Part shown: piece after piece, positions 10,774-62,909 of the stretch
How positions within the stretch are numbered: the first letter of the stretch is position 1
How the letters are laid out: every line of letters starts with the position of its first letter
NCBI GenBank assembly: GCA_020631855.1
Contig: JACKGU010000002.1
Coordinates: 159,447-223,446 of the forward strand
DNA: 64,000 bases
From: Candidatus Nomurabacteria bacterium
GTDB lineage: Bacteria > Patescibacteriota > WWE3 > UBA101185 > UBA10185
Direction: 5' to 3'
Notes under the pieces: model-generated
Database searches by the model: none
What the model was told of the DNA's origin: nothing
What the model saw: the letters and a program-made list of their open reading frames with translations, nothing else
Translations under genes and position numbers: made by a program

Positions 10774-11870
10774 ACAAGCAGTTTTTACAGAAACTAACCG
10801 CCTTTCAGAATTCTTTTAATGCGAATTTCTTTTTAGAAATAGAAGATCTGGAAAAGCACATGATGGAAAATATGTCACATAGCCTGCAAGAGGTTTATCG
10901 TCGTTATAATAAATTATCCACTAACGGAGGAAAAAGAATAAGGCCCTTTTTAGCAGATGTTTCATACAGTGCTTTTGGTGGGCAAGACACAAAGAACATC
11001 AGAAAGCTATGCATTGCCGTGGAACTAACAAATTCCTACATACTGGCTTTAGATGACGACCTTGACAGAACACAACTAAGAAGAAATTCTCCCACAGCAA
11101 ACAAATCTATCTATGAGTATCTACTAACACTTCGTCCTACAACAGAAATGTCGTACGCACATCATTTAACCTCATCTTTAATATCTATTACGTCTTTAAT
11201 GTATATGCATTACATAAACTCTTTTATCATAGAGCAAACTACATTTGAAGAAAGTGTAAAGCTGCGCCTTATAGATACACTAGCTAAAATGATTTTTAAA
11301 ACAGCCCAGGGAGAAAACAGCGAAACAGTATTGATGCTAGATAGAGACATTTCAATTAAAAGATCACTTGATATTTTACTTACTAAAACCGGCTATTATA
11401 CAATTGAGACGCCAGTTAGAATGGGCTATTTTGCTACAGGAGAAGAAAACCCCAGTGTAACAAGCTCCTTAGAAGAATATGCTCACAATGTCGGTCTGGC
11501 TTTTCAATTAAACGACGACATAATAGGAATCTTTGGAGACACGAACATTGCAGGAAAAAGTAATTCCGACGACATAAAAGAAGGAAAAATAACACCTTTG
11601 GTTGCTTACATTTATGAAAATGGCTCATCTAAGGACATCTCCGTAATAGAATCTATATTGGGTCGGGCAGATATCACAGATGAGGAGGCTGACAGGTTTA
11701 GAGACGTGGTCGTGTCTTCGGGAAGTAAAGATTTTGTTAGCAATTTGGCCAGAGAATACGCAGATAAAGGCAAAGCCAGTATTAAAAATGCCGAAAAATT
11801 TGCAGTGAGTAAGGATGCATTTAATACTTTCTTTGAGTTAGCAGATTTTGTTATCGACAGGTCTTTTTAA
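10770..11870 (+). CDS. Polyprenyl diphosphate synthase (GGPP/FPP synthase family)
   Basis: First Asp-rich motif LALDDDLDRTQLRRNSPTANK and second FQLNDDIIGIFGD. Start overlaps the ndh stop (ATGA). Confidence 0.65.
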   Translation: MNKQFLQKLTAFQNSFNANFFLEIEDLEKHMMENMSHSLQEVYRRYNKLSTNGGKRIRPFLADVSYSAFGGQDTKNIRKLCIAVELTNSYILALDDDLDRTQLRRNSPTANKSIYEYLLTLRPTTEMSYAHHLTSSLISITSLMYMHYINSFIIEQTTFEESVKLRLIDTLAKMIFKTAQGENSETVLMLDRDISIKRSLDILLTKTGYYTIETPVRMGYFATGEENPSVTSSLEEYAHNVGLAFQLNDDIIGIFGDTNIAGKSNSDDIKEGKITPLVAYIYENGSSKDISVIESILGRADITDEEADRFRDVVVSSGSKDFVSNLAREYADKGKASIKNAEKFAVSKDAFNTFFELADFVIDRSF

Positions 11871-40215: not shown

Positions 40216-40291
40216 TGGGGTGGCTGATCGGGATCGAACCGACGACATCCGCCTCCACAGGGCGGCGTTCTACCGCTGAACTACAGCCACC
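40216..40291 (-). tRNA. tRNA-His (GTG) with genomically encoded G-1 and CCA
   Basis: Reverse complement G-GTGGCTGTAGTTCAGCGGTAGAACGCCGCCCTGTGGAGGCGGATGTCGTCGGTTCGATCCCGATCAGCCACCCCA. Confidence 0.8.
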
Positions 40292-40452
40292 ATATAAGGT
40301 TGTAATTACAACCATTGAATTATAACACAGCGCACGCGAGGCGATCTAAACAAACAGGGTTAAGCTTTCGCAATAGAAGCCCCGCATTCCCTTCTTTTAC
40401 CCTTCCCAAAAACTTTAAAATCCTATAAAACAGTCTGCATCCAGTTAAAGTG

Positions 40453-41862
40453 TCATTTCTTCCAGCCCATGAAGTCTAGGAACCTGTCTGCCGCAGTAAA
40501 AGTGTACTTTTCGCCTACTCCTGTTATGTGTTTTGAGACGTAAAAGTTTGCATATGGGTGATACAAAAATATGGCCGGAACATACTCGTCTATTACTTTT
40601 TGGAATTCATTATAATGAATTAACCTTTGGTCGGTGTCGATAGCATTTCTACCTTCTTCTAAGGCTCTATCAGCTCTGACCTGATCAAAGTTCGACAGGT
40701 TTAGTCCAGGAAATTCTTTTTGGGTTGAGTGCCAATTAATGTATCTATCCGGATCCCTCCCCACTGCCTGTCCATAGAGTAATATTTGATAATCGCGTTT
40801 ATTAATAACGTCCTCAATGAATGTGGTAGGATCTCTTTTTTGAATTTTTACATTAACCTTTAGCTTGTCTTCCCAAATCCCTTTAATTCTCTCGGCCATT
40901 TGTTTGTGATTTTTAAGATCCGGAATTGTTATTACAAGCTCTTTTCCATCGAGATCATCTCTTAACCCCTTATTATACTTATCGTAATCTATATCAGGAT
41001 CGGTATAAATACTTCTGCTTATTGGCCCCTCAACATTAATCCCCCGGTCATATATGAGCTCGTTTATGTTTAGAGTTGCCCTAAGATCTTCTCGAAACTC
41101 CAGTTCTGACAAACCCTCGTTGTCTAAATTGAGGAAGAGGGCGAAATAGATGCCCTGCAATGGGAATTTTTTATTATCAAAATTTTCCAACTGGTGCTCC
41201 TGAGATGACATAAAAGCATCTATTTCGCCCAACCTGGCAGAAAGCTCCAGCTCGTCCTCACTGCTGTAATATCTAAAGGAAATCTTTTTAATCTCAGGGT
41301 TTGCCGTTTCTGAATAAAGCATAACCTCTTTAACAACCTTACCGCTCTTTGAAACCCTAACCACCCTAAAAGGACCGCTTGATACCGGAGACAGGGGGTT
41401 ATATTCTTCCTCAGAACCGTCCTTCATAACTCCCTTAGTAAGCAAACTAATAAACGGTGAGAATTTGTTTGGAAGAATATATCTAACAGTGAGATCATCA
41501 ACTTTGTCTGTTCCGACATCCTGAAGATACCTGCTTTTAAACGCGGTGTATATTAGATCGTCCGCAACAATGGGGCTACCATCCGACCATCTCTGGTTTT
41601 CCTTTAATGTGATTGTATAAACAAGTCCATCGCTAGAAATCGACCAGCTATCGGCCAAATCCGGCACCAAGGTGCCATAAATATCATACTTAAATAAACC
41701 TCTGTAAATAAGCTGGGATATTGTAGTGTCGTTTTGGGATACTGCCTGACTGGGAAAAAATGACTCCGGCTGGCCAACAATTCCTTCGGTATAAGACTTC
41801 ACCGGGGCTATGGCAAAAATAAAAGACACCAATAAATATACTGTTTTGTGCAATAAATGCAT
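40453..41862 (-). CDS. Extracellular solute-binding protein (family 5, Opp/Dpp-like)
   Basis: Signal peptide. ~469 aa. Confidence 0.5.
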   Translation of the reverse strand: MHLLHKTVYLLVSFIFAIAPVKSYTEGIVGQPESFFPSQAVSQNDTTISQLIYRGLFKYDIYGTLVPDLADSWSISSDGLVYTITLKENQRWSDGSPIVADDLIYTAFKSRYLQDVGTDKVDDLTVRYILPNKFSPFISLLTKGVMKDGSEEEYNPLSPVSSGPFRVVRVSKSGKVVKEVMLYSETANPEIKKISFRYYSSEDELELSARLGEIDAFMSSQEHQLENFDNKKFPLQGIYFALFLNLDNEGLSELEFREDLRATLNINELIYDRGINVEGPISRSIYTDPDIDYDKYNKGLRDDLDGKELVITIPDLKNHKQMAERIKGIWEDKLKVNVKIQKRDPTTFIEDVINKRDYQILLYGQAVGRDPDRYINWHSTQKEFPGLNLSNFDQVRADRALEEGRNAIDTDQRLIHYNEFQKVIDEYVPAIFLYHPYANFYVSKHITGVGEKYTFTAADRFLDFMGWKK

Positions 41863-42178
41863 GAATATATTCTACCAAAAGGTTACAAATAACGATATCA
41901 ACAGACCTTTGGCGAAGACCTGCCTAAATATACAAAAAAGAGCCCTCGAAATTCAAGAGCTCTTTATTAGTGCAGACGACGGTAAACAAAAGTTTGGTGC
42001 TCAAGAGAGCATGTCGTCTGCAGTAAATATATTATCAAAATATTTTTATGTGTCAACATATTTTATTTTCTGCTCAATAGAACTTCTATAACTTATTAGG
42101 AACCAACAAAACCTTACAGATGGGTAATTAGTTGCCTAAACAGGGTGTTTATTGATAAAATACCCTAGTCATACACCA

Positions 42179-42254
42179 GGCCCCATCGTCTAGTGGACTA
42201 GGACATCAGGTTTTCATCCTGGAAACGGGGGTTCAATTCCCCCTGGGGTCACCA
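42179..42254 (+). tRNA. tRNA-Glu (TTC), CCA encoded
   Basis: GGCCCCATCGTCTAGTGGACTAGGACATCAGGTTTTCATCCTGGAAACGGGGGTTCAATTCCCCCTGGGGTCACCA. Confidence 0.8.
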
Positions 42255-50621: not shown

Positions 50622-50825
50622 TGTAGGGAGTTGGTCAAACAAATTTCCCGACTACGAAATTGATATGTCACCCTTTCTTCTTTATGTTGATTCGGATTAT
50701 AGCATTGTAGGTGTTAGGGCTTAATGTCTGACGTGTCCAATAGCCTTACCTCGATAGTACTCCAGGCCGTAACCAGGGCTATATAATGTATAGTCTACTT
50801 GAGGCTCGCCATAGCTTACAGAGTT

Positions 50826-50960
50826 TCGATGGTGAGGGCGGTGGGGATCGAACCCACGACACCCTGGTTAACGCCTAATTCGCAGGCTCATAAGGCGTTC
50901 ACTGAATCAGAACGATTCAGTGTAAAAGCCCTCTGCTCTACCACTGAGCTGTCTTATATA
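50826..50960 (-). pseudogene. Disrupted tRNA-Lys(TTT)-like copy: intact 3' half, ~52-bp insertion in the anticodon loop, degenerate 5' half
   Basis: The first 42 bp TGGTGAGGGCGGTGGGGATCGAACCCACGACACCCTGGTTAA match tRNA-Lys at 62782 with 2 compensatory T-stem changes. After a 52-bp insert, AAAAGCC and TGCTCTACCACTGAGCT (D-arm) follow, but the acceptor 5' strand cannot pair. Confidence 0.6.
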
Positions 50961-51014
50961 GAGAGTCTTAATGTTTTGGCTGATGTAGCTGTTTGTATGA
51001 TTGAACGTTAATCC

Positions 51015-51136
51015 GATACTACTATGTATAGTAGTATATATACTAGTATCGATAGTAGTATGCATAGTAGTATAAAAAATTCCGCGCAGTACTGTACCCA
51101 GTAGTACCTACAGTACTGTGTACACTAGTGTCATAG
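51015..51136. repeat. Iteron-like short repeats (ATAGTAGTAT x4 including one inverted; AGTACTGT-type x3)
   Basis: gATACTACTATgtATAGTAGTATatatactagtatcgATAGTAGTATgcATAGTAGTATaaaa ... CAGTACTGTACCCAGTAGTACCTACAGTACTGTGTAC. Confidence 0.65.
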
Positions 51137-51186
51137 ATATCGGCTATTGCTAATCTCTAGATGCCTGGCTTTAAGATATTAGAATC

Positions 51187-51477
51187 TTAATAAAATTTAT
51201 ACTTTTTTGGTTTTTTCTTGCCAAATATTTTCTTAAGCTCAGACTCTGTTTCATATCCGTTGTAGGTCTCGCTCAAAGCATACTCTACAAGCGTCTTAAA
51301 CGACTGTCCTGAGTTAGTTCTTAGATTAGATAGTATTTTCCACCACCCGATATCTAAACGTATTTGAAATGTCTTTTTTTGTAACTTTGTCGACATATAT
51401 AACCCCTCACGGGGTAGTTCCCCCAGCCGTTTCCTTTCTGGTGATTCACGTTCTTGCCTGTGCTTTTGTGTCCTCAC
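51187..51477 (-). CDS. Small basic protein, possibly a ribbon-helix-helix DNA-binding protein
   Basis: Internal start MSTKLQKKTFQIRLDIGWWKILSNL... has a beta-strand then helix pattern. Sits next to the iteron-like repeats. Confidence 0.3.
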   Translation of the reverse strand: MRTQKHRQERESPERKRLGELPREGLYMSTKLQKKTFQIRLDIGWWKILSNLRTNSGQSFKTLVEYALSETYNGYETESELKKIFGKKKPKKYKFY

Positions 51478-52096
51478 CCAGAAAAGGTCTGGGTCCTGTG
51501 TGTTCTACGTAATTACATAACTTTTTCTCTTCATCATCTGTTTATCACCGTCAGAGGTTTCCGTATGGGACGCAGTTAGTGATACTTCTTTCGACCAGGC
51601 CCTTATCGGTGCACGGGCTTTAGACTGCGCAGCCCCTACTGTAAGTCTTAATGACTTTTGAGTGTGAGAAACATCACTCAGAAATCATCAATTCTGTGGC
51701 GCGCGTTTTTATTTGTGAGTGAAAGTTTAGATAATGGAGAAAATAGCATGATGCCCATTAAAAAAACTCCTCACACAAACATTTACTGATGTTTTCAATT
51801 TCTATTTGCTAACTCAGTAAAGGCTGTATTTGGAGTCACGGACTCAGCTTTTGGGTGTTTTACCCAAGCCTTACAATTTCATTTTCGTATAAAAGTCGAT
51901 TTGTGTCAATAGGTAAATGTTGTTGTGACAGTAAATAATGGCAATTATAGGTAAGTATGCATCAATATCGCAATGCGATAGTTTACCCAAAACTTAGATC
52001 CTTATATGAAGATTAACTCTGAGGTATAATCAGAGTATGTTGTAGCTACAACATATGCCATTAAGGCTTAGTTACCTTTAGCAGAAAGATATTTGT

Positions 52097-53674
52097 ATGT
52101 CAGATGAACAAAAAAGACTTTTAGAAAAACAGCTATGGGCTGTTGCCAATACCCTTAGGGGAAAAATGAATGCCGACGAGTATAAAAACTACATACTCGG
52201 CTTCATCTTTTATAAGTACTTATCCGAAAAACTAGAAAAGTATATTAACGAAACCCTCTTATCACGTGAAAGTTTTAAATTTGCTGAAATAAAAGAAGAA
52301 ACAGACGAGGGTAAAAAGATACTAGAAGAGATAAAAAAGGCTTGTGTAAACCATTTGGGCTTTTTCTTACAACCAAACGAACTGTTTTCACACATAGTTA
52401 AAAAAGGTAAGGGAGAACTAAAAGATCAATCTACTTTCATACTGGAAGATCTAAAAGTAATACTAGACACTATCGAAAAGACCTCAATGGGAACAGATAG
52501 CGAAGACGACTTTAAAGGCTTGTTTGATGATGTAGATCTTACCTCTTCTAAGCTTGGTTCAAGCGAAAATAAGAAAAACGAAGCTATTGTAGAGGTACTA
52601 AAACTCCTAAATGGCATAGATTTCAGACTAGAAGACTCAAAAAGTGATCTGTTGGGCGATGCATATGAGTATCTTATTGGTGAATTTGCCGCGGGAGCAG
52701 GTAAAAAGGGTGGTGAGTTCTATACACCTGCGCAGGTTTCAAGATTGTTGGCGCAATTTGTAACTGTTGGGAAGAAAAAAATACGCTCAGTTCTAGACCC
52801 AACCTGTGGTTCTGGATCTTTATTACTCAGACTTAGAGATTATGTTGAGGTAGCTGATTATTACGGGCAAGAGCTTAATCCAACCACATACAACCTAGCA
52901 CGAATGAATATGATTCTTCACGGAGTGCACTTTGATCATTTCACAATAAGACAAGGCGACACTCTAACAGAAGATAGATTTCCTGACTTACAAGCAGAAG
53001 CTATTGTAGCCAATCCACCATTTTCAGCTAAATGGAAGAGTGAAGATGATCCCGCGCTTGTTCATGATGAGAGATTTTCACAATATGGACGTTTAGCACC
53101 AAAAAGTGCAGCGGATTATGCCTTTGTAACTCACATGCTTCACCACCTTAGCGAGAACGGTACTATGGCCATTGTCCTACCACATGGAGTGCTTTTTAGG
53201 GGTGGATCTGAGGGGCAGATAAGAAAACATATCATAGCTAAGCAAAACACCCTGGACGCTGTTGTGGGGCTCCCAGCGAACCTTTTTTATGGCACTTCTA
53301 TCCCTGCATGTGTCCTTGTATTCAAGAAATGCAGACAAGACGATGATGATATTTTATTTATAGATGCCAGTAAGGATTTTGAGAAAAACAAGAATCAGAA
53401 CTATCTAACAGATGAGAATATCAAAAAGATCTTTGAAACTTATAAAGACAGAAAAGAAATTGAAAAGTACTCCCATAAAGCCACACTGGAAGAGATAAAA
53501 GAAAACGATTTTAACCTCAATATCCCAAGGTATGTCGACACATTCGAAGAACCTGAAGAAATTGATATCAAACAAGTTGCACACGAACTACAAAAGTCAG
53601 TAAAAAGAGAGCCTGACATTAAAGCGAAGCTTAATGAAATCCTAGTAGAACTTAATTTGGAAAGTCCTTTTTAG
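52097..53674 (+). CDS. hsdM: Type I restriction-modification N6-adenine DNA methyltransferase subunit
   Basis: HsdM N-terminal domain, AdoMet motif DPTCGSGS, catalytic VANPPFS. Confidence 0.9.
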   Translation: MSDEQKRLLEKQLWAVANTLRGKMNADEYKNYILGFIFYKYLSEKLEKYINETLLSRESFKFAEIKEETDEGKKILEEIKKACVNHLGFFLQPNELFSHIVKKGKGELKDQSTFILEDLKVILDTIEKTSMGTDSEDDFKGLFDDVDLTSSKLGSSENKKNEAIVEVLKLLNGIDFRLEDSKSDLLGDAYEYLIGEFAAGAGKKGGEFYTPAQVSRLLAQFVTVGKKKIRSVLDPTCGSGSLLLRLRDYVEVADYYGQELNPTTYNLARMNMILHGVHFDHFTIRQGDTLTEDRFPDLQAEAIVANPPFSAKWKSEDDPALVHDERFSQYGRLAPKSAADYAFVTHMLHHLSENGTMAIVLPHGVLFRGGSEGQIRKHIIAKQNTLDAVVGLPANLFYGTSIPACVLVFKKCRQDDDDILFIDASKDFEKNKNQNYLTDENIKKIFETYKDRKEIEKYSHKATLEEIKENDFNLNIPRYVDTFEEPEEIDIKQVAHELQKSVKREPDIKAKLNEILVELNLESPF

Positions 53675-54825
53675 TGGTGGTACTAGAAAAAGCATTATTA
53701 GTACCGCCTTTGAGATTTAAAGGGTTTACTGGTAATTGGAACGAGGTGTCGCTGAAACAGCTTCTTACTCCTATTGAGAGAAAAACAAAAAAACCAGCTG
53801 AGAGTTACACATCGATTGGAATACGAAGCCACTTTAAAGGTACTATGCAAAGATACGACACTGATCCTAAAAGTAATTCTATGGAATATCTCTACTTAGT
53901 ACATAAGGACGATTTTATTCTAAACATAACATTTGCTTGGGAAGGCGCTCTAGCTATTGCGAGGGAAGAAGATGATTTAGGTTATGTATCTCACAGATTT
54001 CCAACATATCGAGTTAATGAGGATATCGTTACAAAGGAGTTTTTTCAATATCTGTACCCAACGGAAAGAATGAAATATAACTTAAGAAATATATCTCCAG
54101 GCGGTGCAGGTCGAAATAGAGTGTTAAATAAAAGGGATTTTCTTAAATTGAAAGTAAAGATTCCTGAAACAGATGAGCAAAATAAGATATCTGAGTTTAT
54201 GCGCTCTCTGGAAGATTGGATACAAAACTTAAAATCACAAAAGGAAGAACTTGAGAAATATAAAAAAGGCATGATGCAGAAGATTTTCTCTCAAGAGATT
54301 AGGTTTAAAGATGGTAATGGTAAAGATTATCCCGATTGGAAAGATGTTAAATTCAAAGACATCTTTGTTGTAGGTAGTGGTAAAGATTATAAGCATCTAC
54401 AAAGCGGTGATATTCCAGTTTATGGTACAGGTGGTTACATGACCTCAGTTAATGATTATCTCTATGAGGGCGAAAGTGTAGGTATTGGAAGAAAAGGTAC
54501 AATCGATAAGCCTATATTTCTTAAAAACAAGTTTTGGACTGTGGACACACTATTTTATACACATTCTTTTAAGGGCGTTTTACCTTATTTTGTTTTCTTA
54601 TTGTTTCAAAACGTGAATTGGAAGAAATACAACGAGGCTTCAGGTGTACCAAGTCTATCTAAAAACACTCTTTATACAATCAAAACTAGGGTACCTAGTA
54701 TCGACGAACAAAACAAAATTATAGCGTTGTTCACGTCTTTAGAAGATCTAACAAGTTCAAAGCAAAATCAAATAGAAAAAGCAGAAATGTGGAAAAAAGG
54801 TTTATTGCAGGAGATGTTTGTATAA
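53674..54825 (+). CDS. hsdS: Type I restriction-modification specificity subunit
   Basis: Two target-recognition domains separated by conserved helical spacers. Start overlaps the hsdM stop. Confidence 0.8.
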   Translation: MVVLEKALLVPPLRFKGFTGNWNEVSLKQLLTPIERKTKKPAESYTSIGIRSHFKGTMQRYDTDPKSNSMEYLYLVHKDDFILNITFAWEGALAIAREEDDLGYVSHRFPTYRVNEDIVTKEFFQYLYPTERMKYNLRNISPGGAGRNRVLNKRDFLKLKVKIPETDEQNKISEFMRSLEDWIQNLKSQKEELEKYKKGMMQKIFSQEIRFKDGNGKDYPDWKDVKFKDIFVVGSGKDYKHLQSGDIPVYGTGGYMTSVNDYLYEGESVGIGRKGTIDKPIFLKNKFWTVDTLFYTHSFKGVLPYFVFLLFQNVNWKKYNEASGVPSLSKNTLYTIKTRVPSIDEQNKIIALFTSLEDLTSSKQNQIEKAEMWKKGLLQEMFV

Positions 54826-56451
54826 ATGAACAAAGAGCTTATACGAAGTATTGCTGCTTCGAAAAACAGCCTAATAGTAGGACTCGCCGGACCTGGTACG
54901 GGAAAAAGCTATACATTTAAGGAAATTGTTCTATCTGAAGATTATAAAGGCAAAAAAATATTAATCCTGTCTTTTATAAATAAACTTGTAGATGATCTAA
55001 AAGATGATTTTGAAAAATTCGAAAACGTAGAAGTCTCCACATTGCACGCCTTTGCCTATATAAATATGGGCGAGGTACTACTAAACGAAAATTTGGATAA
55101 ATATATTAGTGAAGACTATAAATACATTTTTGGTTCAGACATAAACTATGCCGAGAAGTTTTATCAAAACGCACTAACCGAGGAAGAAGAAACATTCTAT
55201 TTCAACAGAAGTGCATACTATAGATATGACAGGGACTTATATTCCTTTAATTCAATAATATACAAATTCAATCAACTCATGAATGCTTCTGATAGTAATA
55301 TCCCGCGATATGATTTGATTCTAATTGATGAATTTCAAGATTTTAATAGTCTTGAGGTAGAGCTAATTCAACTGTTGAACAAGGTTAATAAAGTTGTTGT
55401 AGTGGGAGATGATGACCAATCACTATACGCTTTTAAAAAAGCTAAACCTGATAAAATACGCGATCTCTATAGAAGTGAGAACACATATAGCTTTTCTCTA
55501 GATAACTGCTACAGATGTCCAAAAGTTATTGTGGATGCAACTAATAATCTAGTAAAAAATGCTGTCGAAAATAACTACTTACAGGAAAGGGAGAATGCAA
55601 AAAAGTTTCTATATCCTGAAGAAGATCCGAATCATACGAAAAAGCATGAAGTTAGTGAAAAGTATCCAAAAATATATTTTGCACAACAAAAGCAAGGGGA
55701 TCTATTAACCTATTCCTTAGTAAAGTTTATCAAAGATGACGTAACTGAGAATGATGGTGGACGTGTTCTTGTTATCTGCCCAAGATATCTGATGAATAGT
55801 ATTTACGACGGATTAACAAGTAAAGGTCTTAATGTTATTGACTTTGAGCTTTTCTCTAGCGAAGAAAAAAATAAAATTAAACACTCTGAATTAATAAAAG
55901 CCCTTGAAATATTATCCACTAGGAAAACGGATAATTTGGCTTTGAGACAACTTCTAAATAAATATGTATCTGATGATTTCCTAAAGGAAAGCATCAAATC
56001 TTCCCATACTGAAAACAAGAAACTGTGGTCATACTTAGTTGAGGATACTCGGACAAATATTGAAGAGGATGTTACTTTATTTAAAAAAGTGAGAAAAGGA
56101 AAGGACGATCTTACCGAGACCGACTTATTAAAGTTAAACCAGCTTTTTAATCTGAAAAACATACTATCCAAAATGATAAACGGATTTAACGCTGTCAAAA
56201 AAGGAGCTATTGAGGTTGAATTAACTACAACGGTAAGTTCCAAGGGGTTATCTGCAGAATTTGTGTATTACTTGGCTATTGATGATAGCGACATGCTAGA
56301 TAGAGATACAGGAACAATTACAGACAACAAACTTTGCGAATTCTTAGTGGGTATGACAAGGGCAAAAAGTAAATTGGTACTTATTTCGCGAAAAGACGCA
56401 CATCCTAAAATATTGGAGTTTTTGGATGATTCTTATATTGAAACTATATGA
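54826..56451 (+). CDS. UvrD/PcrA-like SF1 helicase embedded between hsdS and hsdR
   Basis: Motif I GLAGPGTGKS, II LILIDEFQDF, III VVVGDDDQSLYAFKKA, IV CYRCPKVIV, VI VGMTRAKSKLVL. Confidence 0.7.
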   Translation: MNKELIRSIAASKNSLIVGLAGPGTGKSYTFKEIVLSEDYKGKKILILSFINKLVDDLKDDFEKFENVEVSTLHAFAYINMGEVLLNENLDKYISEDYKYIFGSDINYAEKFYQNALTEEEETFYFNRSAYYRYDRDLYSFNSIIYKFNQLMNASDSNIPRYDLILIDEFQDFNSLEVELIQLLNKVNKVVVVGDDDQSLYAFKKAKPDKIRDLYRSENTYSFSLDNCYRCPKVIVDATNNLVKNAVENNYLQERENAKKFLYPEEDPNHTKKHEVSEKYPKIYFAQQKQGDLLTYSLVKFIKDDVTENDGGRVLVICPRYLMNSIYDGLTSKGLNVIDFELFSSEEKNKIKHSELIKALEILSTRKTDNLALRQLLNKYVSDDFLKESIKSSHTENKKLWSYLVEDTRTNIEEDVTLFKKVRKGKDDLTETDLLKLNQLFNLKNILSKMINGFNAVKKGAIEVELTTTVSSKGLSAEFVYYLAIDDSDMLDRDTGTITDNKLCEFLVGMTRAKSKLVLISRKDAHPKILEFLDDSYIETI

Positions 56452-59246
56452 CACATCAATCAGAACAACAACTAGAAAATACACTAATAAACCAACTACA
56501 AAGACTTGGATTTACGTTGGTTAATATCCAAGATACTAATGATTTGTACGTCAACCTACTCAAACAACTTGAGAAGTTTAACAATACAGAATTTTCTGAA
56601 TACGAGTTTGATCAGATCGTTAACTATTTACACAAAGGTGATAGATTTCAAAAAGCCAAAACACTAAGAGATCGCTTTGTTTTGCATAGAGATGATGGCA
56701 CTACTTTTTGGGTTAGGTTCTTCAACACAGACAAGTGGTGTAAGAACGAATACCAAGTTACGCACCAAGTAACTCAAAAAGGCAAATATGAAAACAGATA
56801 CGATGTAACACTTCTTATAAACGGGCTGCCTCTTGTTCAAGTAGAACTAAAACGCAGAGGTATGGAAATGAAAGAAGCTTTCAACCAAATACAGCGTTAC
56901 CATAAGCACACGTTTACAGGAACTTTATTTGAATACGTACAGATATTTGTTATCTCAAACGGAGTAAATACAAAATACTTTTCCAATAATCCTAAACAAT
57001 CGTTTGAACAAACATTTTACTGGACTGATGTAGACAACAGAAAAGTAACTAAACTAGATGAGTTTACAGAGGTATTTTTAGAAAAATGCTTTGTTTCCAA
57101 GATGATAGCAGAATACACAGTACTAGCAGAAGCACTTCAAATACCTATGGTATTGCGCCCGTATCAATACTACGCAGTAAAGGCAATTGAAAAAAGAGTA
57201 TTAGAAACAAATAAGAACGGTTATATCTGGCACACAACAGGATCAGGTAAAACACTAACATCTTATAAAGCAAGCCAGATACTTTCACAAATGCCAGATG
57301 TTAAAAAAGTTATGTTTGTTGTGGACAGAAAGGACTTGGACATCCAAACTACTAAAGAGTTCAATTCGTTCTCTGAGGGCTCTGTAGACGGTACAAATAA
57401 CACTCATAACCTAGTACAACAACTAAAAGACAATAACAGAAAGCTTATTGTTACAACTATTCAGAAGCTTGATATTGCAATAAGCAAGGAACACTATCTT
57501 AAGCAATTTGAAGATTTAGCAAATGAAAAAGTAGTCATAATCTTTGATGAATGCCATAGATCTCAGTTTGGTCAAACACACGCCAGAATAAAAAGCTTCT
57601 TTAACAATGCACAACTGTTTGGATTTACTGGCACACCTATCTTTGCAGATAACAATGTTGGCGGAGTTACAACAAAAGACGTATTTGATGAGTGTCTTCA
57701 CAAATACATCATCACAAACGCTATTTCAGACGGTAATGTCTTAGGATTTGCGGTTGAATATGTCGGAAGATACAAACAAAAAGCACCTGATACTTTGGAT
57801 GCAGATATTTTTGCAGATGCATTAGTTGAGGGAATAGATAAACGTGAAGTTCTTGAAAGCGATGATCGACTTAATAAGATTGCAAACTATGTACTAGCTG
57901 ACTGGAAGCGTAAAACCAAATCAGGCAAGTTTAATGCCATTTTTGCAGTAACAAGCATTGAAGTACTCAAAAAATACTACACATTGTTTAAAGCTAAAAA
58001 GTCCGAAGACTTCAAAATAGCAACAATCTTTACGTATCAAGCAAATGAAAACGAGAGTGAAGACATGTTAGATGTAGATGTATTTGCCTTTGAAGACGCG
58101 CCTGTAAACCAACATTCTAGGGATTATTTGGAAGATTGTATAAAAGACTACAACAGTCTCTTTTCTACAAACTACTCTACAGATCGATTCTATGACTACT
58201 ACAGAGACCTACAGGGAAGAATTAAGAACAAAGAAGTAGATTTGGTCATTGTAGTGAATATGTTTTTAACTGGTTTTGACAGCAAAAGACTAAATACTCT
58301 TTATGTTGATAAAAACTTGAGATATCACGGGCTTATACAAGCATATTCACGGACAAACAGAACACTGACCTCTGATAAACCACATGGAAATATAATCTCA
58401 TTTAGAAACCTAAAAGAAGCAACAGATAAAGCACTAGCCTTGTTTGGTGATGAAAATGCCAAAGAAGTTGTTTTTAAAAAACCATATGAAGAGCAAAAGA
58501 AAGAGTTTGAAGCAAAGTTATCTGACCTTAAAGAAAAGGCGCCTACACTTGAGTCTATTGATGAATTAAAAGGCGAAGAAGAAAAAGCTGAATTTGTAAA
58601 AACATTCAGAGATCTCTTGCGCATAAAGTCTTCTTTAGAAACGTTTGCAGAATTTAGCTTTGATGACTTAGGTGTATCTGAACAAGAGTTCTATGACTAT
58701 CAAAGCAAATACCTAGATATTTATGAAGAGCGCAGGAACAACAGCCCAGAGGCAGAATCAATACTAGATCAAATAGATTTTGAGCTAGAGCTTACTATCC
58801 GAGATATTATCAACTTCGATTACATCATCATGTTGATAGCAGGACTTAAAAACATTAGTTCTGACGCGATAAGGGAGAAGAAAACAGAGGATATTCTTAA
58901 GATCTTTGACCGTGATGTACAGCTAAGAAAGAAGAAAGAACTGATTAGGAAGTTTATCGAAGAGAATCTACCAAAGGTTACAAAAGCAGATGATGTTGAA
59001 AAGGCATTTAGTGATTTCTGGCAAAGTGAAAGAGCTACAGTGCTCAAAAAACTAGCCGAAGACGAAAATATTCCGTCCGAAAACATTGAAAAGCTGATTG
59101 GTGAGTATCTATACACTCAAAAGCTTCCACAAGAACAGGACATAGCAGATATGCTACCAGAACAACCAAGAATCCTTGAAAGAAGTAGTATTATTGAACG
59201 TATAAAAACAGCTATAGAAAATATAGTTGATATATTTGAATGGTAA
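56448..59246 (+). CDS. hsdR: Type I restriction enzyme R subunit
   Basis: N-terminal nuclease motif DVTLLINGLPLVQVELKRRG, SF2 ATPase motifs HTTGSGKTLTS and FDECHRSQ, ~932 aa. Overlaps the helicase stop by 4 bp. Confidence 0.9.
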   Translation: MTHQSEQQLENTLINQLQRLGFTLVNIQDTNDLYVNLLKQLEKFNNTEFSEYEFDQIVNYLHKGDRFQKAKTLRDRFVLHRDDGTTFWVRFFNTDKWCKNEYQVTHQVTQKGKYENRYDVTLLINGLPLVQVELKRRGMEMKEAFNQIQRYHKHTFTGTLFEYVQIFVISNGVNTKYFSNNPKQSFEQTFYWTDVDNRKVTKLDEFTEVFLEKCFVSKMIAEYTVLAEALQIPMVLRPYQYYAVKAIEKRVLETNKNGYIWHTTGSGKTLTSYKASQILSQMPDVKKVMFVVDRKDLDIQTTKEFNSFSEGSVDGTNNTHNLVQQLKDNNRKLIVTTIQKLDIAISKEHYLKQFEDLANEKVVIIFDECHRSQFGQTHARIKSFFNNAQLFGFTGTPIFADNNVGGVTTKDVFDECLHKYIITNAISDGNVLGFAVEYVGRYKQKAPDTLDADIFADALVEGIDKREVLESDDRLNKIANYVLADWKRKTKSGKFNAIFAVTSIEVLKKYYTLFKAKKSEDFKIATIFTYQANENESEDMLDVDVFAFEDAPVNQHSRDYLEDCIKDYNSLFSTNYSTDRFYDYYRDLQGRIKNKEVDLVIVVNMFLTGFDSKRLNTLYVDKNLRYHGLIQAYSRTNRTLTSDKPHGNIISFRNLKEATDKALALFGDENAKEVVFKKPYEEQKKEFEAKLSDLKEKAPTLESIDELKGEEEKAEFVKTFRDLLRIKSSLETFAEFSFDDLGVSEQEFYDYQSKYLDIYEERRNNSPEAESILDQIDFELELTIRDIINFDYIIMLIAGLKNISSDAIREKKTEDILKIFDRDVQLRKKKELIRKFIEENLPKVTKADDVEKAFSDFWQSERATVLKKLAEDENIPSENIEKLIGEYLYTQKLPQEQDIADMLPEQPRILERSSIIERIKTAIENIVDIFEW

Positions 59247-59249
59247 AAA

Positions 59250-60011
59250 ATGAGCGAATACTATAACCCACAGAGATCAAAAAAATATTGTTACGACAAA
59301 AACAGCACTGAACCATTCAAGCTAAGCAGATCTAAGATAGATAACTTTATTAGTTGCCCACGATGTTTTTATATTGATCGAGTTTTAGGAACTTCCCAAC
59401 CCCCAGGATTTCCTTTTGCGCTGAACAGTGCAGTTGACGCGTTACTTAAAAAAGAATTTGATTATCATCGTACATCTGATAAAGAACACCCACTTATTAC
59501 AAAATATGGTGTAGATGCGAAACCAGTAGCACATGAAAGTCTTGATGACTGGCGAAATAACTTTGTTGGGGTTCAGTATCTTCATGAACCAACAAATCTA
59601 CTTGTTTTTGGCGCGATTGATGATTTATGGATCAGCTCAAAAGGAGAATACATTGTTGTAGATTACAAATCCACCAGTAAGAGCGAAGAAATAACTGAAC
59701 TTAACAAAGACTGGCAAGATGGCTACAAGCGCCAAATGGAAGTATACCAGTGGCTTTTAAGAAACAACGGGTACAAGGTATCTGATACAGGTTACTTTGT
59801 TTACTGCAATGGAAACACCGATCTAGAAGCTTTTGACGCCAAACTAGAGTTTGATGTAACTCTTATTTCTTATACTGGTGACGACTCTTGGGTGGAACAG
59901 ACAATCTTTGATATTAAGAAGTGTTTGGATTCAGATAAGATACCTGAAAGCGCACCTGATTGTGATTACTGTGCGTATTACAACACTAGAGATAAACACG
60001 AGAAGATATAA
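59250..60011 (+). CDS. Cas4/RecB-family PD-(D/E)XK nuclease with four Cys (putative Fe-S cluster)
   Basis: GAIDDLW ... GEYIVVDYKS (D...E.K), QMEVYQWL (QxxxY), N-terminal CPRC and C-terminal CDYC. Begins 4 bp after the hsdR stop. Confidence 0.6.
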   Translation: MSEYYNPQRSKKYCYDKNSTEPFKLSRSKIDNFISCPRCFYIDRVLGTSQPPGFPFALNSAVDALLKKEFDYHRTSDKEHPLITKYGVDAKPVAHESLDDWRNNFVGVQYLHEPTNLLVFGAIDDLWISSKGEYIVVDYKSTSKSEEITELNKDWQDGYKRQMEVYQWLLRNNGYKVSDTGYFVYCNGNTDLEAFDAKLEFDVTLISYTGDDSWVEQTIFDIKKCLDSDKIPESAPDCDYCAYYNTRDKHEKI

Positions 60012-60136
60012 AACACAGTTTTCAAAAAACCTGACCTGTTAAAACTGTCTACGGTACATCAAATCCAAAGCAAAAAATAGATTTTTAGACCTGCGGTGGT
60101 TTTCAAGATTGTTGTGCTTTAAAGCATAGACCTACC

Positions 60137-60330
60137 ATGTTATGCAACATTTCTCATTTTTATATATTTGTTACAACACACTTTTATACTTATAAATGTT
60201 ACACAACATTTTTGTTGTAACTGTTGTAACAACGAATACTAAAGTTACAGCAGATTGAAAATGTGTAGACAAATATGTGTAAGTTTATAAGCATTTGTGT
60301 TGTAACATTGTGATACAAGCCAAACTGTTA
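60137..60330. promoter_or_regulatory. Array of GTTGTAAC/GTTACAAC palindromic half-sites and -10-like TGAGGTATAATC upstream of mrr
   Basis: ATGTTATGCAACAT, TGTTACAACAC, ATGTTACACAACATT, TTGTTGTAACTGTTGTAACAACG, TGTGTTGTAACATTGTG. TGAGGTATAATC also occurs upstream of hsdM at 52021. Confidence 0.45.
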
Positions 60331-60399
60331 ACACATTTATTATTACAATAACTAAGCTATAGATGTTGAGGTATAATCTATTCATAAGGATTAAAAAAT

Positions 60400-61299
60400 A
60401 TGTCTATACCAACATTTGATGAAACATTCTTACCAATATTGAACATTCTCTCAAAAGGAGAAACTTTAAAGACATCTGATCTTCCCAGTCTTTTATTGGA
60501 AGATGGGCATTTCTCGTTATCCGAAGAAGAACAGAAGAAAAAGATATCTAGTGGTTCAAATATGTTTTCCAATAGAGTCTACTGGGGAGTTACATATCTC
60601 AGACAAGCCAAACTTGTAGAGCGCCCCTCTAGGGGATTTGTAAAAATAACTCAAAAAGGTTCTGACTATCTAGCAACCAATCCAAGTGAGTTAACACTTA
60701 GCTGGATTAAACAAGATTCGGATTATCAGGCATATGAACCAGTGCGATCAAAGCAAAAAGATGAAGAAGAAAGTTTTGATATTGGAGGCATGTCTCCTCA
60801 AGACCTGATAGATCAAGGTGTGAGGAAACTCAACGAGCAATTAAAGAATGACTTAATAGAAAAACTTCACGAAAGCAATCCTTACTACTTTGAAAAGATT
60901 GTTCTTATACTCTTTAAAAAGATGGGTTATGGTGATTTCCAAGAAACTCCAAAGTCTGGTGATGGCGGAATAGATGGAATAATAAATAACGATCTACTAG
61001 GTCTTGAAAAAATCTATATACAAGCAAAAAGATATGCGGAAACAAATAAGGTTAGAGAACCAGAAATACGAAATTTCATTGGCGCAATGAGTGGCGATGT
61101 GAGCAGGGGTATATTTGTTACAACATCTGAATTTGATGACTCCGCAAAACAAAAGGCAAGAGACGCTCACAACCACAAAATAATACTTATAGATGGTGAT
61201 AGATTAACTGATTTGATGATCGAATATAATGTAGGCGTTCAAGTACAAGCCTCTTTTGACGTTAAAGATGTTGATGAAGACTTCTTTGAATTAGGTTAA
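60400..61299 (+). CDS. mrr: Mrr-family type IV (modification-dependent) restriction endonuclease
   Basis: Mrr_N winged helix, then catalytic domain FEKIVLILFKKMGYG ... GDGGIDGI ... IYIQAKRY. Confidence 0.7.
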   Translation: MSIPTFDETFLPILNILSKGETLKTSDLPSLLLEDGHFSLSEEEQKKKISSGSNMFSNRVYWGVTYLRQAKLVERPSRGFVKITQKGSDYLATNPSELTLSWIKQDSDYQAYEPVRSKQKDEEESFDIGGMSPQDLIDQGVRKLNEQLKNDLIEKLHESNPYYFEKIVLILFKKMGYGDFQETPKSGDGGIDGIINNDLLGLEKIYIQAKRYAETNKVREPEIRNFIGAMSGDVSRGIFVTTSEFDDSAKQKARDAHNHKIILIDGDRLTDLMIEYNVGVQVQASFDVKDVDEDFFELG

Positions 61300-61376
61300 T
61301 ACAACTCTCGCATTGCGAGAGTCCTGTATGGTTGCACACTTCCTAAAATCCTTTACCATGGAGCTGTAGCTATCCT

Positions 61377-62909
61377 ATGAAAAACACAGCTATCGCTTAC
61401 ATTCGCGTAAGCTCAGAAGAACAAGTAAAAAACTACTCACTAGCTAATCAAAAAGAATATTGTGAAAAATATGCGCGGGAAAATGATTTAGATTTAGTAA
61501 AGATATTCAAAGAAGAGGGTAAATCCGCAATGAATATTGATCGTCCCGCTCTAATTTCCCTACTAGAGTACTGTAGAAAAAACACTGGCAAAGTAGATTA
61601 CTTAGTTCTTTATAAAATAGACAGACTATCACGCTCAACAATCGATTATCTAGAAATAAAAAGACGTTTAGCTAAATACGGTGTACAAGTTAAATCTGTT
61701 ACAGAGTTCACAGACGATACTCCTATGGGTGAGTTCATGGAAACTCTTATTGCCGCACAAGCCAAACTAGACAATGCTATAAGAGCCGAGCGGGTAAGTG
61801 ATGGTATTAGAAAAAGAGTTGAATCAGGACTACCTGTTAGCGTTCCACCAATAGGTTATAAGCTATCTAAAGGTAATAACGGCAAAAGCATTACAATACC
61901 AGACGAACCCACTTTCTCCCTTTTACAAAGAGCTGGTTATCAGTACCTTACTGGAAACTATACTTTCACCGAATTGGCGGAGTTACTCAATAAGTGGGGG
62001 TTTACTACAAAGAAAGGTAATCCCGCGACATCTAACTTTGTAGGTAAGTTTCTAAGAATGTCTTTTTACAAGGGAATTATCTACTCAAAGAAATGGAAGA
62101 AAGAATACAGAGGTATGCATATACCAATGTTTACTGATAACGAATGGGACGATATCCAAGATATTGTAGACGGAAACCCTTTAACAATTAAGAAAAAGCA
62201 AAGAGCAGAAGAGTTTCCCCTAAGAGGATTCGTTACGTGTAGCGTAACAGGAGATCCACTAACAGGTTCTTGGTGTAAAGGTAATACAAAACACTACGCA
62301 TACTACTATTCACCATCAAAGTATAAATCTATTCCAAAAGATACTCTAGAAAGTGAATTTACGGCTTTGTTGGACCTTATAGAGCCAGCGCCAGGTGTTA
62401 TAGAGTCTTTCTCACGTGTTTTATTTGATAAATATAATGAAAAGTACTCAAAGCTACTACAAAACGAACAACTATTATCAGATCAGATAAAAGATATAAA
62501 CGGTGTGGGAAATGAGGTGGAAGATGACTTGGCGGTGAAAAACCTAATAAAAAATGAAAACAAAATAAATATGATAACTATAGAGACCGCTAGGAACTTT
62601 TCAGAACATTTCTTAGAACACATATCCCAGTATTGGAGAACTGCCCACCTAAGAGACAAAGTTAAAATACAAGAAGTATTATTCCCTCAGGGACTTACTT
62701 ACACGTATCCTGAATTTTTAGAACCTAGGATAAGCTGTCTTTATAAGATAAATACGGAAAAGTCGACTCTCAATCATTTATTGGTGAGGGCGGTGAGGAT
62801 CGAACTCACGACACCCTGGTTAAAAGCCAGGTGCTCTACCACTGAGCTACGCCCCCTCGATAAGCTTATAAATTGTTACAAAAATATGGAAGAAGTGCAA
62901 TATTTTTAA
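61377..62909 (+). CDS. Large serine recombinase (integrase); true 3' end probably before or at the tRNA-Lys gene
   Basis: Resolvase catalytic domain AIAYIRVSSEEQ ... YKIDRLSRS, a recombinase domain, and a Cys-containing segment CSVTGDPLTGSWCKG. The ORF stays open across antisense tRNA-Lys (62782-62856). Confidence 0.7.
   Translation: MKNTAIAYIRVSSEEQVKNYSLANQKEYCEKYARENDLDLVKIFKEEGKSAMNIDRPALISLLEYCRKNTGKVDYLVLYKIDRLSRSTIDYLEIKRRLAKYGVQVKSVTEFTDDTPMGEFMETLIAAQAKLDNAIRAERVSDGIRKRVESGLPVSVPPIGYKLSKGNNGKSITIPDEPTFSLLQRAGYQYLTGNYTFTELAELLNKWGFTTKKGNPATSNFVGKFLRMSFYKGIIYSKKWKKEYRGMHIPMFTDNEWDDIQDIVDGNPLTIKKKQRAEEFPLRGFVTCSVTGDPLTGSWCKGNTKHYAYYYSPSKYKSIPKDTLESEFTALLDLIEPAPGVIESFSRVLFDKYNEKYSKLLQNEQLLSDQIKDINGVGNEVEDDLAVKNLIKNENKINMITIETARNFSEHFLEHISQYWRTAHLRDKVKIQEVLFPQGLTYTYPEFLEPRISCLYKINTEKSTLNHLLVRAVRIELTTPWLKARCSTTELRPLDKLINCYKNMEEVQYF
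62782..62856 (-). tRNA. tRNA-Lys (TTT), CCA encoded
   Basis: Reverse complement GGGGGCGTAGCTCAGTGGTAGAGCACCTGGCTTTTAACCAGGGTGTCGTGAGTTCGATCCTCACCGCCCTCACCA. Confidence 0.8.

What the first reader, a model, noticed from the sequence alone, without database searches (positions are those of the whole stretch)
50826..50960. tRNA-Lys-like pseudogene with a ~52-bp insertion at the anticodon loop
After CCCTGGTTAA (anticodon stem and loop) the sequence diverges for ~52 bp. It then resumes with AAAAGCC and TGCTCTACCACTGAGCT (D-arm). The anticodon-stem 5' strand (CCAGG changed to CCCTC) and the acceptor 5' strand no longer pair. It is either the element-borne decoy or att tRNA copy, or a disrupted former tRNA. 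The insertion point in the anticodon loop may mark the recombinase crossover site.
Basis: seen in the sequence. Interest (0 to 1): 0.5.

Follow-up and report, generated by a model that had tools for sequence, protein, structure and literature searches.

The report
Island-end tRNA-Lys relic, split recombinase gene
The "tRNA-Lys pseudogene with an insertion" is not an intron-containing tRNA but the far-end junction scar of a 12-kb defence island that a large serine recombinase inserted into tRNA-Lys, and it lies inside the detached last part of that recombinase's own gene.

Summary
On the minus strand, 50830-50871 copies tRNA-Lys(UUU) positions 35-76 (40/42). 50923-50950 copies positions 9-37 (25/28). 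51 unique bases lie between them, a net insertion of 54 bp flanked by TAA. The 5' acceptor strand is absent and the anticodon stem cannot pair. ARAGORN (intron mode included) and Rfam find no tRNA or group I intron.

The intact tRNA-Lys lies 12 kb away (62782-62856). A 510-aa large serine recombinase ORF runs antisense through it. Between the two copies lie a type I restriction-modification system, a helicase, a PD-(D/E)XK nuclease and Mrr. A relative has tRNA-Lys directly beside the same LigT-like gene, so the relic marks the ancestral tRNA site.

This recombinase family ends at the CCA end of an antisense tRNA in 58 of 80 genomes. Joining the two junctions, as in an excised circle, extends the ORF through the relic in frame. 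It ends in a peptide (S-x-[DN]-x-L-[AV]-[DN]-[VI]-A-V) shared by three independent tRNA-Lys elements (p<=0.0024).

So the relic is an attachment-junction scar made of tRNA-derived, element-borne coding sequence. Integration splits the recombinase gene. The crossover position (anticodon loop or acceptor end) and any function of the 54-bp insert remain unresolved.

The parts
50830..50871 (-). Copy of tRNA-Lys(UUU) positions 35-76 (anticodon loop 3' side, anticodon stem 3' strand, variable loop, T arm, acceptor 3' strand, CCA). This is the direct repeat of the island.
   Evidence: 40/42 identical to 62782-62823. Its T stem is self-consistent (GTGGG/CCCAC). The same allele occurs as a genuine tRNA-Lys in another organism (L125).
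50872..50922 (.). 51 unique nt (net 54-bp, 18-codon insertion flanked by TAA at 50869-50871 and 50923-50925). It holds two inverted repeats, 50870-50899 and 50900-50922.
   Evidence: No relative found in 2.2 Mb of fetched loci or in viral contigs. There is no in-frame stop on the + strand.
50923..50950 (-). Copy of tRNA-Lys positions 9-37 (D arm, anticodon-stem 5' strand changed to GAGGG, anticodon loop 5' side). Positions 1-8 are missing.
   Evidence: 25/28 to 62821-62848. 26/28 to the tRNA-Lys of relatives L019 and L130.
50829..51011 (+). Detached 3' end of the recombinase gene. The frame continues the recombinase ORF when the two junctions are joined. The conserved tail SYIESLNVLADVAVCMIER is encoded at 50952-51008 and the stop codon is 51009-51011.
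   Evidence: Open frame (ORF 50799-51011). Reconstruction. The tail is conserved in L019 and L224 in the corresponding frame and place.
51014..51396 (-). Left-end regulatory module of the island: a cluster of AGTAGTAT/AGTACTGT repeats and palindromes (51014-51135), and a 69-aa ORF (51187-51396) that looks like a ribbon-helix-helix protein.
   Evidence: The gene is called in public assemblies. No Pfam hit. The fold assignment is by eye only.
52097..61299 (+). Cargo: HsdM, HsdS, UvrD-like helicase, HsdR, PD-(D/E)XK nuclease, Mrr restriction endonuclease.
   Evidence: Pfam.
61377..62909 (+). Large serine recombinase, integrated form (510 aa). The conserved body ends at 62780. The last 42 codons are antisense tRNA-Lys plus its upstream flank.
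   Evidence: Resolvase and Recombinase domains. Translation. Family alignment.
62782..62856 (-). Intact tRNA-Lys(UUU), the target gene as restored after integration.
   Evidence: ARAGORN. Rfam 72.6 bits.

Best explanation
The feature is the recombinase-distal attachment junction of a ~12-kb integrated island (about 50830-62856). A large serine recombinase (LSR) inserted the island into the 3' part of tRNA-Lys(UUU).

Shown:
1. Two same-strand copies of the tRNA bound the island. The intact copy is overlapped antisense by the recombinase ORF. The degenerate copy sits where a relative has its tRNA-Lys, beside the LigT-like gene.
2. The degenerate copy cannot fold as a tRNA, and tRNA and intron models do not recognise it.
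3. In this recombinase family the conserved protein ends exactly at the CCA end of an antisense tRNA.
4. Joining the two junctions prolongs the recombinase ORF through the degenerate copy, including the 54-bp (18-codon) insert. It ends in a 19-aa tail that is conserved in two other tRNA-Lys elements reconstructed the same way.

Inferred:
1. In the free circular element, attP lies inside the 3' end of the recombinase gene. It consists of a decayed tRNA-Lys-like sequence. Its 3' portion replaces what the host gene loses, so tRNA-Lys stays functional.
2. Integration splits the gene. The prophage-like form carries a surrogate tail read from the antisense tRNA, and the true tail is stranded 12 kb away behind the relic.
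3. The part of the relic beyond the crossover is therefore element-borne linker sequence descended from a tRNA, not a decaying host gene. It makes no tRNA.
4. The crossover is either in the anticodon loop (the TAA at the insert) or in the last 14 nt of the tRNA. It is not between the two T-stem strands.
For: - Repeats and geometry.
- Island content and recombinase domains.
- No tRNA or intron call.
- Ancestral site: L130 has LigT, then tRNA-Lys(UUU) 13 nt later on the opposite strand. L224 has recombinase, tRNA-Lys and CofD, matching L130's tRNA-Lys and CofD.
- Family rule: an antisense tRNA abuts the recombinase end in L019 and L021-L025 and in 58 of 80 GTDB loci. Homologue tails are antisense-tRNA translations.
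- Split gene: reconstructed circle ORFs are 528 aa (window) and 471 aa (L019). Tails are SYIESLNVLADVAV, SVVESIDVLANIAV and SVDQLVDVAV (L224). Pairwise Smith-Waterman scores against shuffles give p<2e-4, p<2e-4 and p=0.0024. Synonymous codon differences fit protein-level selection. The best tblastn hit of the window tail among all loci is exactly the predicted place in L019.
- The L224 distal copy is also a 47-nt tRNA copy followed by a decayed 5' half.
- Both window copies have self-consistent T stems, which excludes a crossover between them.
Against: - No excised circle or empty site was found. All 23+ contigs of this organism carry the identical island, so mobility is not shown.
- An in-frame, stop-free 54-bp insert has a chance probability of about 0.1 (1/3 x 0.35).
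- If the crossover is near the acceptor end, one attP arm is nearly identical to one attB arm for 28 bp. That is unlike characterised LSR sites (own knowledge).
- The closest element (L019) has only a 21-nt repeat, so the three elements may not share one crossover.
- No dyad symmetry above background was found at any candidate centre.
- Tail conservation rests on three elements only.
Confidence: 0.68

Rival explanations
1. Host-derived relic. The element carries a nearly full tRNA-Lys body (positions 9-76) and crossed over near tRNA position 8/9. The whole relic is then the host's displaced tRNA body, which later gained the 54-bp insertion and the GAGGG change.
For: Homology spans exactly positions 9-76 and stops where the conserved tail coding begins. 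The relic is at the ancestral tRNA position beside LigT. The recombinase ORF overlaps the whole intact tRNA.
Against: Related elements have distal repeats confined to the 3' end of the tRNA: L019 21 nt, L091 17 nt, L069 and L021 around the CCA end. Decay would scatter substitutions, yet 17+8+40 positions are unchanged and the changes are one block plus one in-frame insert. The L224 distal copy has a similar CCCTC replacement. The distal copies of the window and L224 are 32/33 identical over the acceptor and T arm, although their hosts' functional tRNAs differ.
Confidence: 0.15
2. Functional structured element. The relic folds (as RNA, or as DNA inverted repeats) into a tRNA-like minihelix in which GAGGGC acts as a new acceptor 5' strand pairing with GCCCTC. 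The helix encloses two hairpins and the T arm and ends in ACCA. It could be a processing or stability signal for minus-strand transcripts, or the outer inverted motifs of the recombinase's site.
For: MFE -49.3 kcal/mol, z -4.0, closing on that helix. L224 has GAGGGTG complementary to its CGCCCTC at the equivalent place and folds the same way. Without the insert the motifs are 46-49 bp apart, about the size of an attP (own knowledge). The L091 distal junction also closes on the acceptor 3' strand (z -2.7).
Against: All copies of this island are identical, so there is no covariation. No promoter-like site lies upstream on the minus strand. The L224 fold is not better than shuffles overall (z about -0.3 to -0.5). 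L019 lacks it. Much of the stability comes from the inherited T arm and the two hairpins.
Confidence: 0.12
3. A functional tRNA-Lys gene interrupted by a short intron at 37/38 (bulge-helix-bulge or group I) that is spliced to give a working tRNA.
For: The insertion can be placed at 37/38, the canonical intron position. Patescibacteria do carry tRNA introns (PMC13011429).
Against: There is no 5' acceptor strand and the anticodon stem is unpaired. ARAGORN with introns allowed finds nothing at default stringency, and only an implausible call with a different, 33-nt intron at 80% stringency. The Rfam scan at E<=10 returned no tRNA or group I intron match. Known Patescibacteria tRNA introns are self-splicing group I introns at 35/36, and 51-54 nt is too short for such a ribozyme (own knowledge). 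An intact tRNA-Lys(UUU) exists 12 kb away.
Confidence: 0.01

Closest known systems
Displaced tRNA fragments at the ends of tRNA-integrated genomic islands (as mapped by Islander/TIGER; PMC4383910, PMC7192596)
   Same: An island lies between an intact tRNA and a same-strand partial copy of its 3' part. The recombinase gene sits next to the intact tRNA. The element restores the target gene.
   Different: The enzyme is a large serine recombinase, not a tyrosine integrase. PMC7192596 found tRNA use by serine integrases in only 14/297 cases and called it previously unreported. The partial copy also carries a 5'-half piece and a 54-bp insert, and it lies inside a reading frame.
SSV1-type (fusellovirus) integrases, whose attP lies inside the int gene so that integration partitions it (own knowledge)
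   Same: attP lies within the recombinase gene. The target is a tRNA gene. Integration splits the gene.
   Different: Those are archaeal tyrosine recombinases split near the 5' part. Here a bacterial serine recombinase loses only its last ~19-60 residues and gains a surrogate tail read from the antisense tRNA.
Integration-dependent immunity of mycobacteriophages such as BPs and Brujita (attP inside the repressor gene; own knowledge)
   Same: Integration changes the C-terminus of a phage protein because attP lies in its 3' coding end. The target is a tRNA gene.
   Different: There the altered gene is the repressor, and the effect (loss of a degradation tag) is shown experimentally. Here it is the recombinase itself, and no functional consequence is shown.
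Characterised large serine integrases (phiC31, Bxb1, A118, TP901-1)
   Same: Resolvase catalytic domain with the invariant serine, plus a Recombinase domain. The best matches in isolate phages and plasmids are such integrases at <=32% identity.
   Different: Those enzymes have attP outside the gene and protein-coding or intergenic attB sites, with little attP/attB similarity. This clade abuts tRNA genes and shares 17-47 nt with them.

Membership tests
Functional bacterial tRNA | 7-bp acceptor stem formed by the 5' and 3' ends | tested here: not met
   The 5' strand is absent: tataagac precedes A9, where the real gene has GGGGGCGT.
Functional bacterial tRNA | Paired anticodon stem | tested here: not met
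   GAGGG faces CCAGG and the two are separated by the insert.
Functional bacterial tRNA | Recognised by tRNA covariance or heuristic models | tested here: not met
   No ARAGORN call. No Rfam RF00005 hit at the gathering score or at E<=10.
Intron-containing tRNA (bulge-helix-bulge or group I) | Exons that reconstitute a complete cloverleaf after the intron is removed | tested here: not met
   Removing the 54 nt still leaves no acceptor 5' strand and an unpaired anticodon stem. ARAGORN intron mode finds nothing at default stringency.
Intron-containing tRNA (bulge-helix-bulge or group I) | Group I ribozyme core, or a bulge-helix-bulge motif at both junctions | tested here: not met
   No group I intron match appeared in the Rfam scan at E<=10. 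In the MFE fold the 5' junction is unpaired and the 3' junction sits beside or within a long helix, not in 3-nt bulges. Bulge-helix-bulge was not searched with a dedicated tool.
att junction (displaced target fragment) of a tRNA-integrated island | Direct repeat of the tRNA 3' part, on the same strand as the intact gene | tested here: met
   42 nt at 95%.
att junction (displaced target fragment) of a tRNA-integrated island | Site-specific recombinase gene adjacent to the intact tRNA, with accessory genes in between | tested here: met
   Recombinase at 61377-62909. Restriction-modification and nuclease cargo in between.
att junction (displaced target fragment) of a tRNA-integrated island | Uninterrupted site in relatives, or excised forms | tested here: inconclusive
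   L130 (LigT 62% identical) has LigT directly followed by tRNA-Lys. No conspecific empty site or circle was found.
Large serine recombinase | Resolvase domain with the catalytic serine, plus a Recombinase domain | tested here: met
   PF00239 at 7e-37 and PF07508 at 6.5e-7. R10, V11 and S12 are invariant in 22 homologues.
Large serine recombinase | Zinc-ribbon and coiled-coil domain | tested here: inconclusive
   PF13408 is recorded for many homologues but not detected in the window protein at E<=1e-3.
Large serine recombinase | attP x attB exchange at a central dinucleotide | not testable with these tools
   The crossover is bounded only to the anticodon loop or the last 14 nt. No dyad signal was found.
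Recombinase gene partitioned by its own attP (SSV1-like logic) | The ORF continues across the joined junctions into conserved coding sequence | tested here: met
   for three elements.

The most novel reading that the evidence does not exclude
A widespread, uncharacterised clade of large serine recombinases (common in Patescibacteria) uses tRNA genes as attB. It keeps attP, a decayed tRNA mimic, inside the 3' end of its own gene. Only the free circle would then encode the full-length enzyme with its conserved C-terminal peptide. The integrated copy would make an isoform with an antisense-tRNA-encoded tail. This integration-dependent tail swap could set the direction of recombination (integration against excision) without, or together with, a separate directionality factor. 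The GAGGG(C/TG)...CGCCCTC inverted motifs of the relic would be part of the enzyme's recognition site.
Probability: 0.3. Interest if true: 0.75.

Novelty: new variant of a known kind. Interest (0 to 1): 0.55.

Why it matters
1. It settles the finding. The relic is not a hidden intron-bearing tRNA, so annotation should mark it as an island boundary.
2. It delimits a defence island (type I restriction-modification, helicase, nucleases) in a reduced Patescibacteria genome.
3. It exposes a serine-recombinase clade that systematically targets tRNA genes, which the island-mapping literature (PMC7192596) described as nearly unknown for serine integrases.
4. The clade's gene is split by its own attachment site. 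If the two isoforms differ in activity, this would be a compact way to couple recombination direction to integration state. It would also offer a set of serine integrases with highly conserved natural targets for genome engineering.

Tried and rejected
- Intron-containing tRNA: rejected.
- tmRNA or other Rfam family: only a 21.9-bit match to the tRNA-like 3' end, below the gathering score of 47.
- Excised circle inferred from contig breaks: Logan contigs L004 and L006 break inside the T arm. I rejected this as evidence because genuine tRNA-Lys genes with the same 3' half occur in other organisms of such samples.
- Empty site or circle: exact-protein look-ups for LigT, the recombinase and the small left-end ORF gave only the same arrangement.
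- Metagenome pattern scan: it found other organisms' tRNA-Lys genes and only this island's intact-tRNA junction (L117) from this organism.
- First genome-collection scan with the single protein: nothing found.
- Dyad symmetry of reconstructed attP and attB: not above shuffled background.
- Older tRNA remnant between LigT and the relic: not significant.
- Insert as a repeated mini-element: no other copy found.
- Promoter for the relic: none predicted.
- Close relatives among isolate phages or plasmids: none above 32% identity.
- Viral contigs: only distant relatives. Two of the seven I checked for tRNAs again abut a tRNA.
- Pairs of near-identical recombinases in different hosts, to locate the crossover: none were informative.

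Full report
**What is in the sequence.** Read on the minus strand, 50960-50826 is:

AGCTCAGTGGTAGAGCA-GAGGG-CTTTTA / 51 nt / TTAACCAGG-GTGTC-GTGGG-TTCGATC-CCCAC-CGCCCTC-ACCA.

- The intact tRNA-Lys(UUU) lies at 62782-62856 on the same strand. ARAGORN calls it and Rfam scores it 72.6 bits.
- The 3' block (50830-50871) is 40/42 identical to the intact gene. The two differences are a compensatory pair in the T stem.
- The 5' block (50923-50950) is 25/28 identical. Its three differences are clustered in the anticodon-stem 5' strand.
- In the real gene the two blocks overlap by TAA. The insertion is therefore 51 unique nt, 54 nt net, flanked by TAA on both sides.
- Positions 1-8 of the tRNA are missing.

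**It is not a tRNA.**
- No acceptor stem can form, and GAGGG cannot pair with CCAGG.
- ARAGORN finds nothing, even with introns of 0-200 nt allowed. Only at 80% stringency does it force an implausible model with a different, 33-nt intron.
- The Rfam scan at E<=10 returned no tRNA or group I intron match. It finds only a sub-threshold match of the T arm and acceptor end to tmRNA.
- Group I introns do occur in Patescibacteria tRNAs, at position 35/36 (PMC13011429). The 51-54-nt insert is too short to be such a self-splicing ribozyme (own knowledge).

**Context: a 12-kb island.** Between the two copies lie:
- a 69-aa ORF next to a cluster of short repeats;
- HsdM, HsdS, a UvrD-like helicase and HsdR;
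- a PD-(D/E)XK nuclease and Mrr;
- a 510-aa protein with Resolvase and Recombinase domains.

The recombinase ORF (61377-62909) runs antisense through the whole intact tRNA. It stops 53 nt beyond the tRNA's 5' end.

The window is identical to a stretch of GCA_020631795.1. All contigs holding its LigT-like gene, recombinase or small ORF show the same arrangement.

Relatives fix the ancestral site.
- In L130 the LigT-like gene (62% identical) is followed 13 nt later by tRNA-Lys(UUU) on the opposite strand. That is the place and orientation of the relic here.
- In L224 a homologous recombinase element sits next to tRNA-Lys and CofD, the neighbours seen in L130.

**The recombinase family.**
- Homologues at 44-53% identity come from Patescibacteria; one is named as Collierbacteria and the nearest genome loci as candidate division WWE3.
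- In every context fetched first, the ORF end abuts or overlaps an antisense tRNA.
- Among 80 GTDB loci, 58 have an antisense tRNA at the end of the ORF. The tRNAs cover many different amino acids.
- The conserved protein ends just before the CCA. The variable tails of database homologues read like antisense tRNA: GIEP, GFEP, RTRDL, RIELSTSPLPRECSTTEL.
- Island-mapping work found serine integrases at tRNA genes in only 14 of 297 cases and called this previously unreported (PMC7192596).
- I found no paper describing this clade.
- Isolate phages and plasmids hold only relatives at <=32% identity.

**The relic lies in the recombinase's own reading frame.**
- Joining the proximal and distal junctions, as excision would, makes the window ORF continue. 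It reads through the T-arm copy, the 54-nt insert (18 codons, no stop) and the D-arm copy.
- The tail becomes LVRAVGIEPTTPWL-TPNSQAHKAFTESERFSV-KALCSTTEL-SYIESLNVLADVAVCMIER*, giving 528 aa.
- The same operation on L019 (53% identical recombinase, 21-nt repeat) gives ...SVVESIDVLANIAVKYLKQ*.
- On L224 (47-nt repeat) it gives ...SSLNYLQSVDQLVDVAVFHLMENRK*.
- The three tails share S-x-[DN]-x-L-[AV]-[DN]-[VI]-A-V just before the stop. Shuffle tests give p<2e-4, p<2e-4 and p=0.0024.
- The best tblastn hit of the window tail in about 2 Mb of loci is exactly the predicted place in L019.
- Codons differ synonymously (TCT/AGT, GTT/GTA, GCT/GCG), which fits selection on the protein.
- I conclude that in the circular element the recombinase gene spans attP, and that integration cuts off its true C-terminus.

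**Origin of the relic.**
- The L224 distal copy is also a tRNA copy (47 nt) followed by a decayed 5' half. The L019 arm keeps only faint tRNA similarity.
- The arm of attP in this lineage is therefore a decayed tRNA-Lys sequence that serves as coding linker.
- This explains why a 5'-half piece sits inside the island, why the frame stays open, and why positions 1-8 are absent. The conserved tail coding starts two codons after the D-arm piece.

**Where is the crossover?**
- Both window copies have internally matched T stems, so the exchange did not occur between positions ~52 and ~62.
The 17-18 nt next to that boundary are perfect. Both attB arms would then lie in conserved tRNA sequence.
- In favour of the last 14 nt: the repeats of L019 (21 nt), L091 (17 nt), L069 and L021 cluster at the CCA end. 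The distal copies of the window and L224 are 32/33 identical over the acceptor and T arm, although their hosts' functional tRNAs differ.
- I could not decide between the two. Dyad-symmetry scans were uninformative.

**Unexplained.**
- The replaced anticodon-stem strand GAGGGC is complementary to the acceptor 3' strand, and the MFE fold closes on it (z -4.0).
- L224 has GAGGGTG opposite its CGCCCTC.
- This may be an RNA minihelix, or the outer inverted motifs of a ~46-49-bp site that the 54-bp insert now interrupts in the window. It may also be shared ancestry or chance.
- The insert itself has no relative anywhere I could search.
- No circle or empty site was seen, so the island may be fixed.

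**Verdict.** 'Pseudogene, att copy of the tRNA' is right, and 'intron' is wrong. The relic is an ordinary kind of object, an island-end target fragment, in an unusual system: a serine recombinase that targets tRNA genes and whose gene is split by its own tRNA-derived attachment site.

Noticed in passing
L026-L105 (GTDB loci), P0001-P0120; window 61377-62909: A large clade of large serine recombinases ends exactly at the CCA end of an antisense tRNA gene. This holds in 58 of 80 loci, with tRNAs for 16 or more amino acids, mostly in Patescibacteria but also in MAGs labelled as other phyla. Most database homologues have antisense-tRNA-encoded C-terminal tails.
   Followed up: partly
L091 11555-11620 (and the intact tRNA-Glu at 11446-11521): A degenerate tRNA-Glu lies 34 nt upstream of the intact tRNA-Glu that the recombinase ORF overlaps. 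It has a ~28-nt insertion in the D loop, a mutated T loop and its own TATAAT box. It is a second 'pseudo-tRNA with an insertion', but on the 5' side.
   Followed up: no
L102 2256-2600: Two tandem 169-bp units lie directly upstream of the intact tRNA-Lys. Each unit holds the upstream flank, tRNA-Lys positions 1-18 and a hairpin-rich 126 nt. Shorter 5'-end fragments (13-17 nt) occur upstream of the target tRNA in L039, L053 and L054.
   Followed up: no
L021 11298-11445: A 22-nt copy of the tRNA-Lys(CUU) 3' end lies inside the recombinase ORF. It is followed by 128 nt of G+C-rich sequence and only then the real tRNA. The distal repeat carries the same 17-nt downstream flank as the real tRNA. This looks like a relic att copy inside the element.
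   Followed up: partly
window 51014-51135 and 51187-51396 (-): A dense cluster of AGTAGTAT/AGTACTGT direct and palindromic repeats lies next to a 69-aa ORF that looks like a ribbon-helix-helix protein (by eye; no Pfam hit). It may be an operator and regulator, or a directionality module, of the island.
   Followed up: no
window 51480-52090: About 600 nt at the island's left end have no ORF of 60 aa or more. Promoter-like sites on the minus strand lie at 51973-51944 and 51909-51881.
   Followed up: no
window 40216-42254; L023 11472-13282: The window's locus of tRNA-His, an SBP_bac_5 gene and tRNA-Glu is the same locus that in L023 carries two recombinase elements of this family, one on each tRNA. 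I saw no ORF of recombinase size next to these tRNAs in the window's ORF list (ORFs of 150 aa or more; no domain search).
   Followed up: partly
L019 11278-11352, L021 11446-11520, L224 3190-3239: The tRNA-Lys genes that ARAGORN calls in the WWE3-like genomes L019 and L021 have the T loop TCCGATC, with C at position 55 instead of the near-universal U. The L224 distal relic has the same loop.
   Followed up: no
window 54826-56451: A UvrD-like superfamily-1 helicase gene is inserted between hsdS and hsdR of the type I restriction-modification operon. A PD-(D/E)XK nuclease and Mrr follow. This is an unusual composite defence cassette.
   Followed up: no
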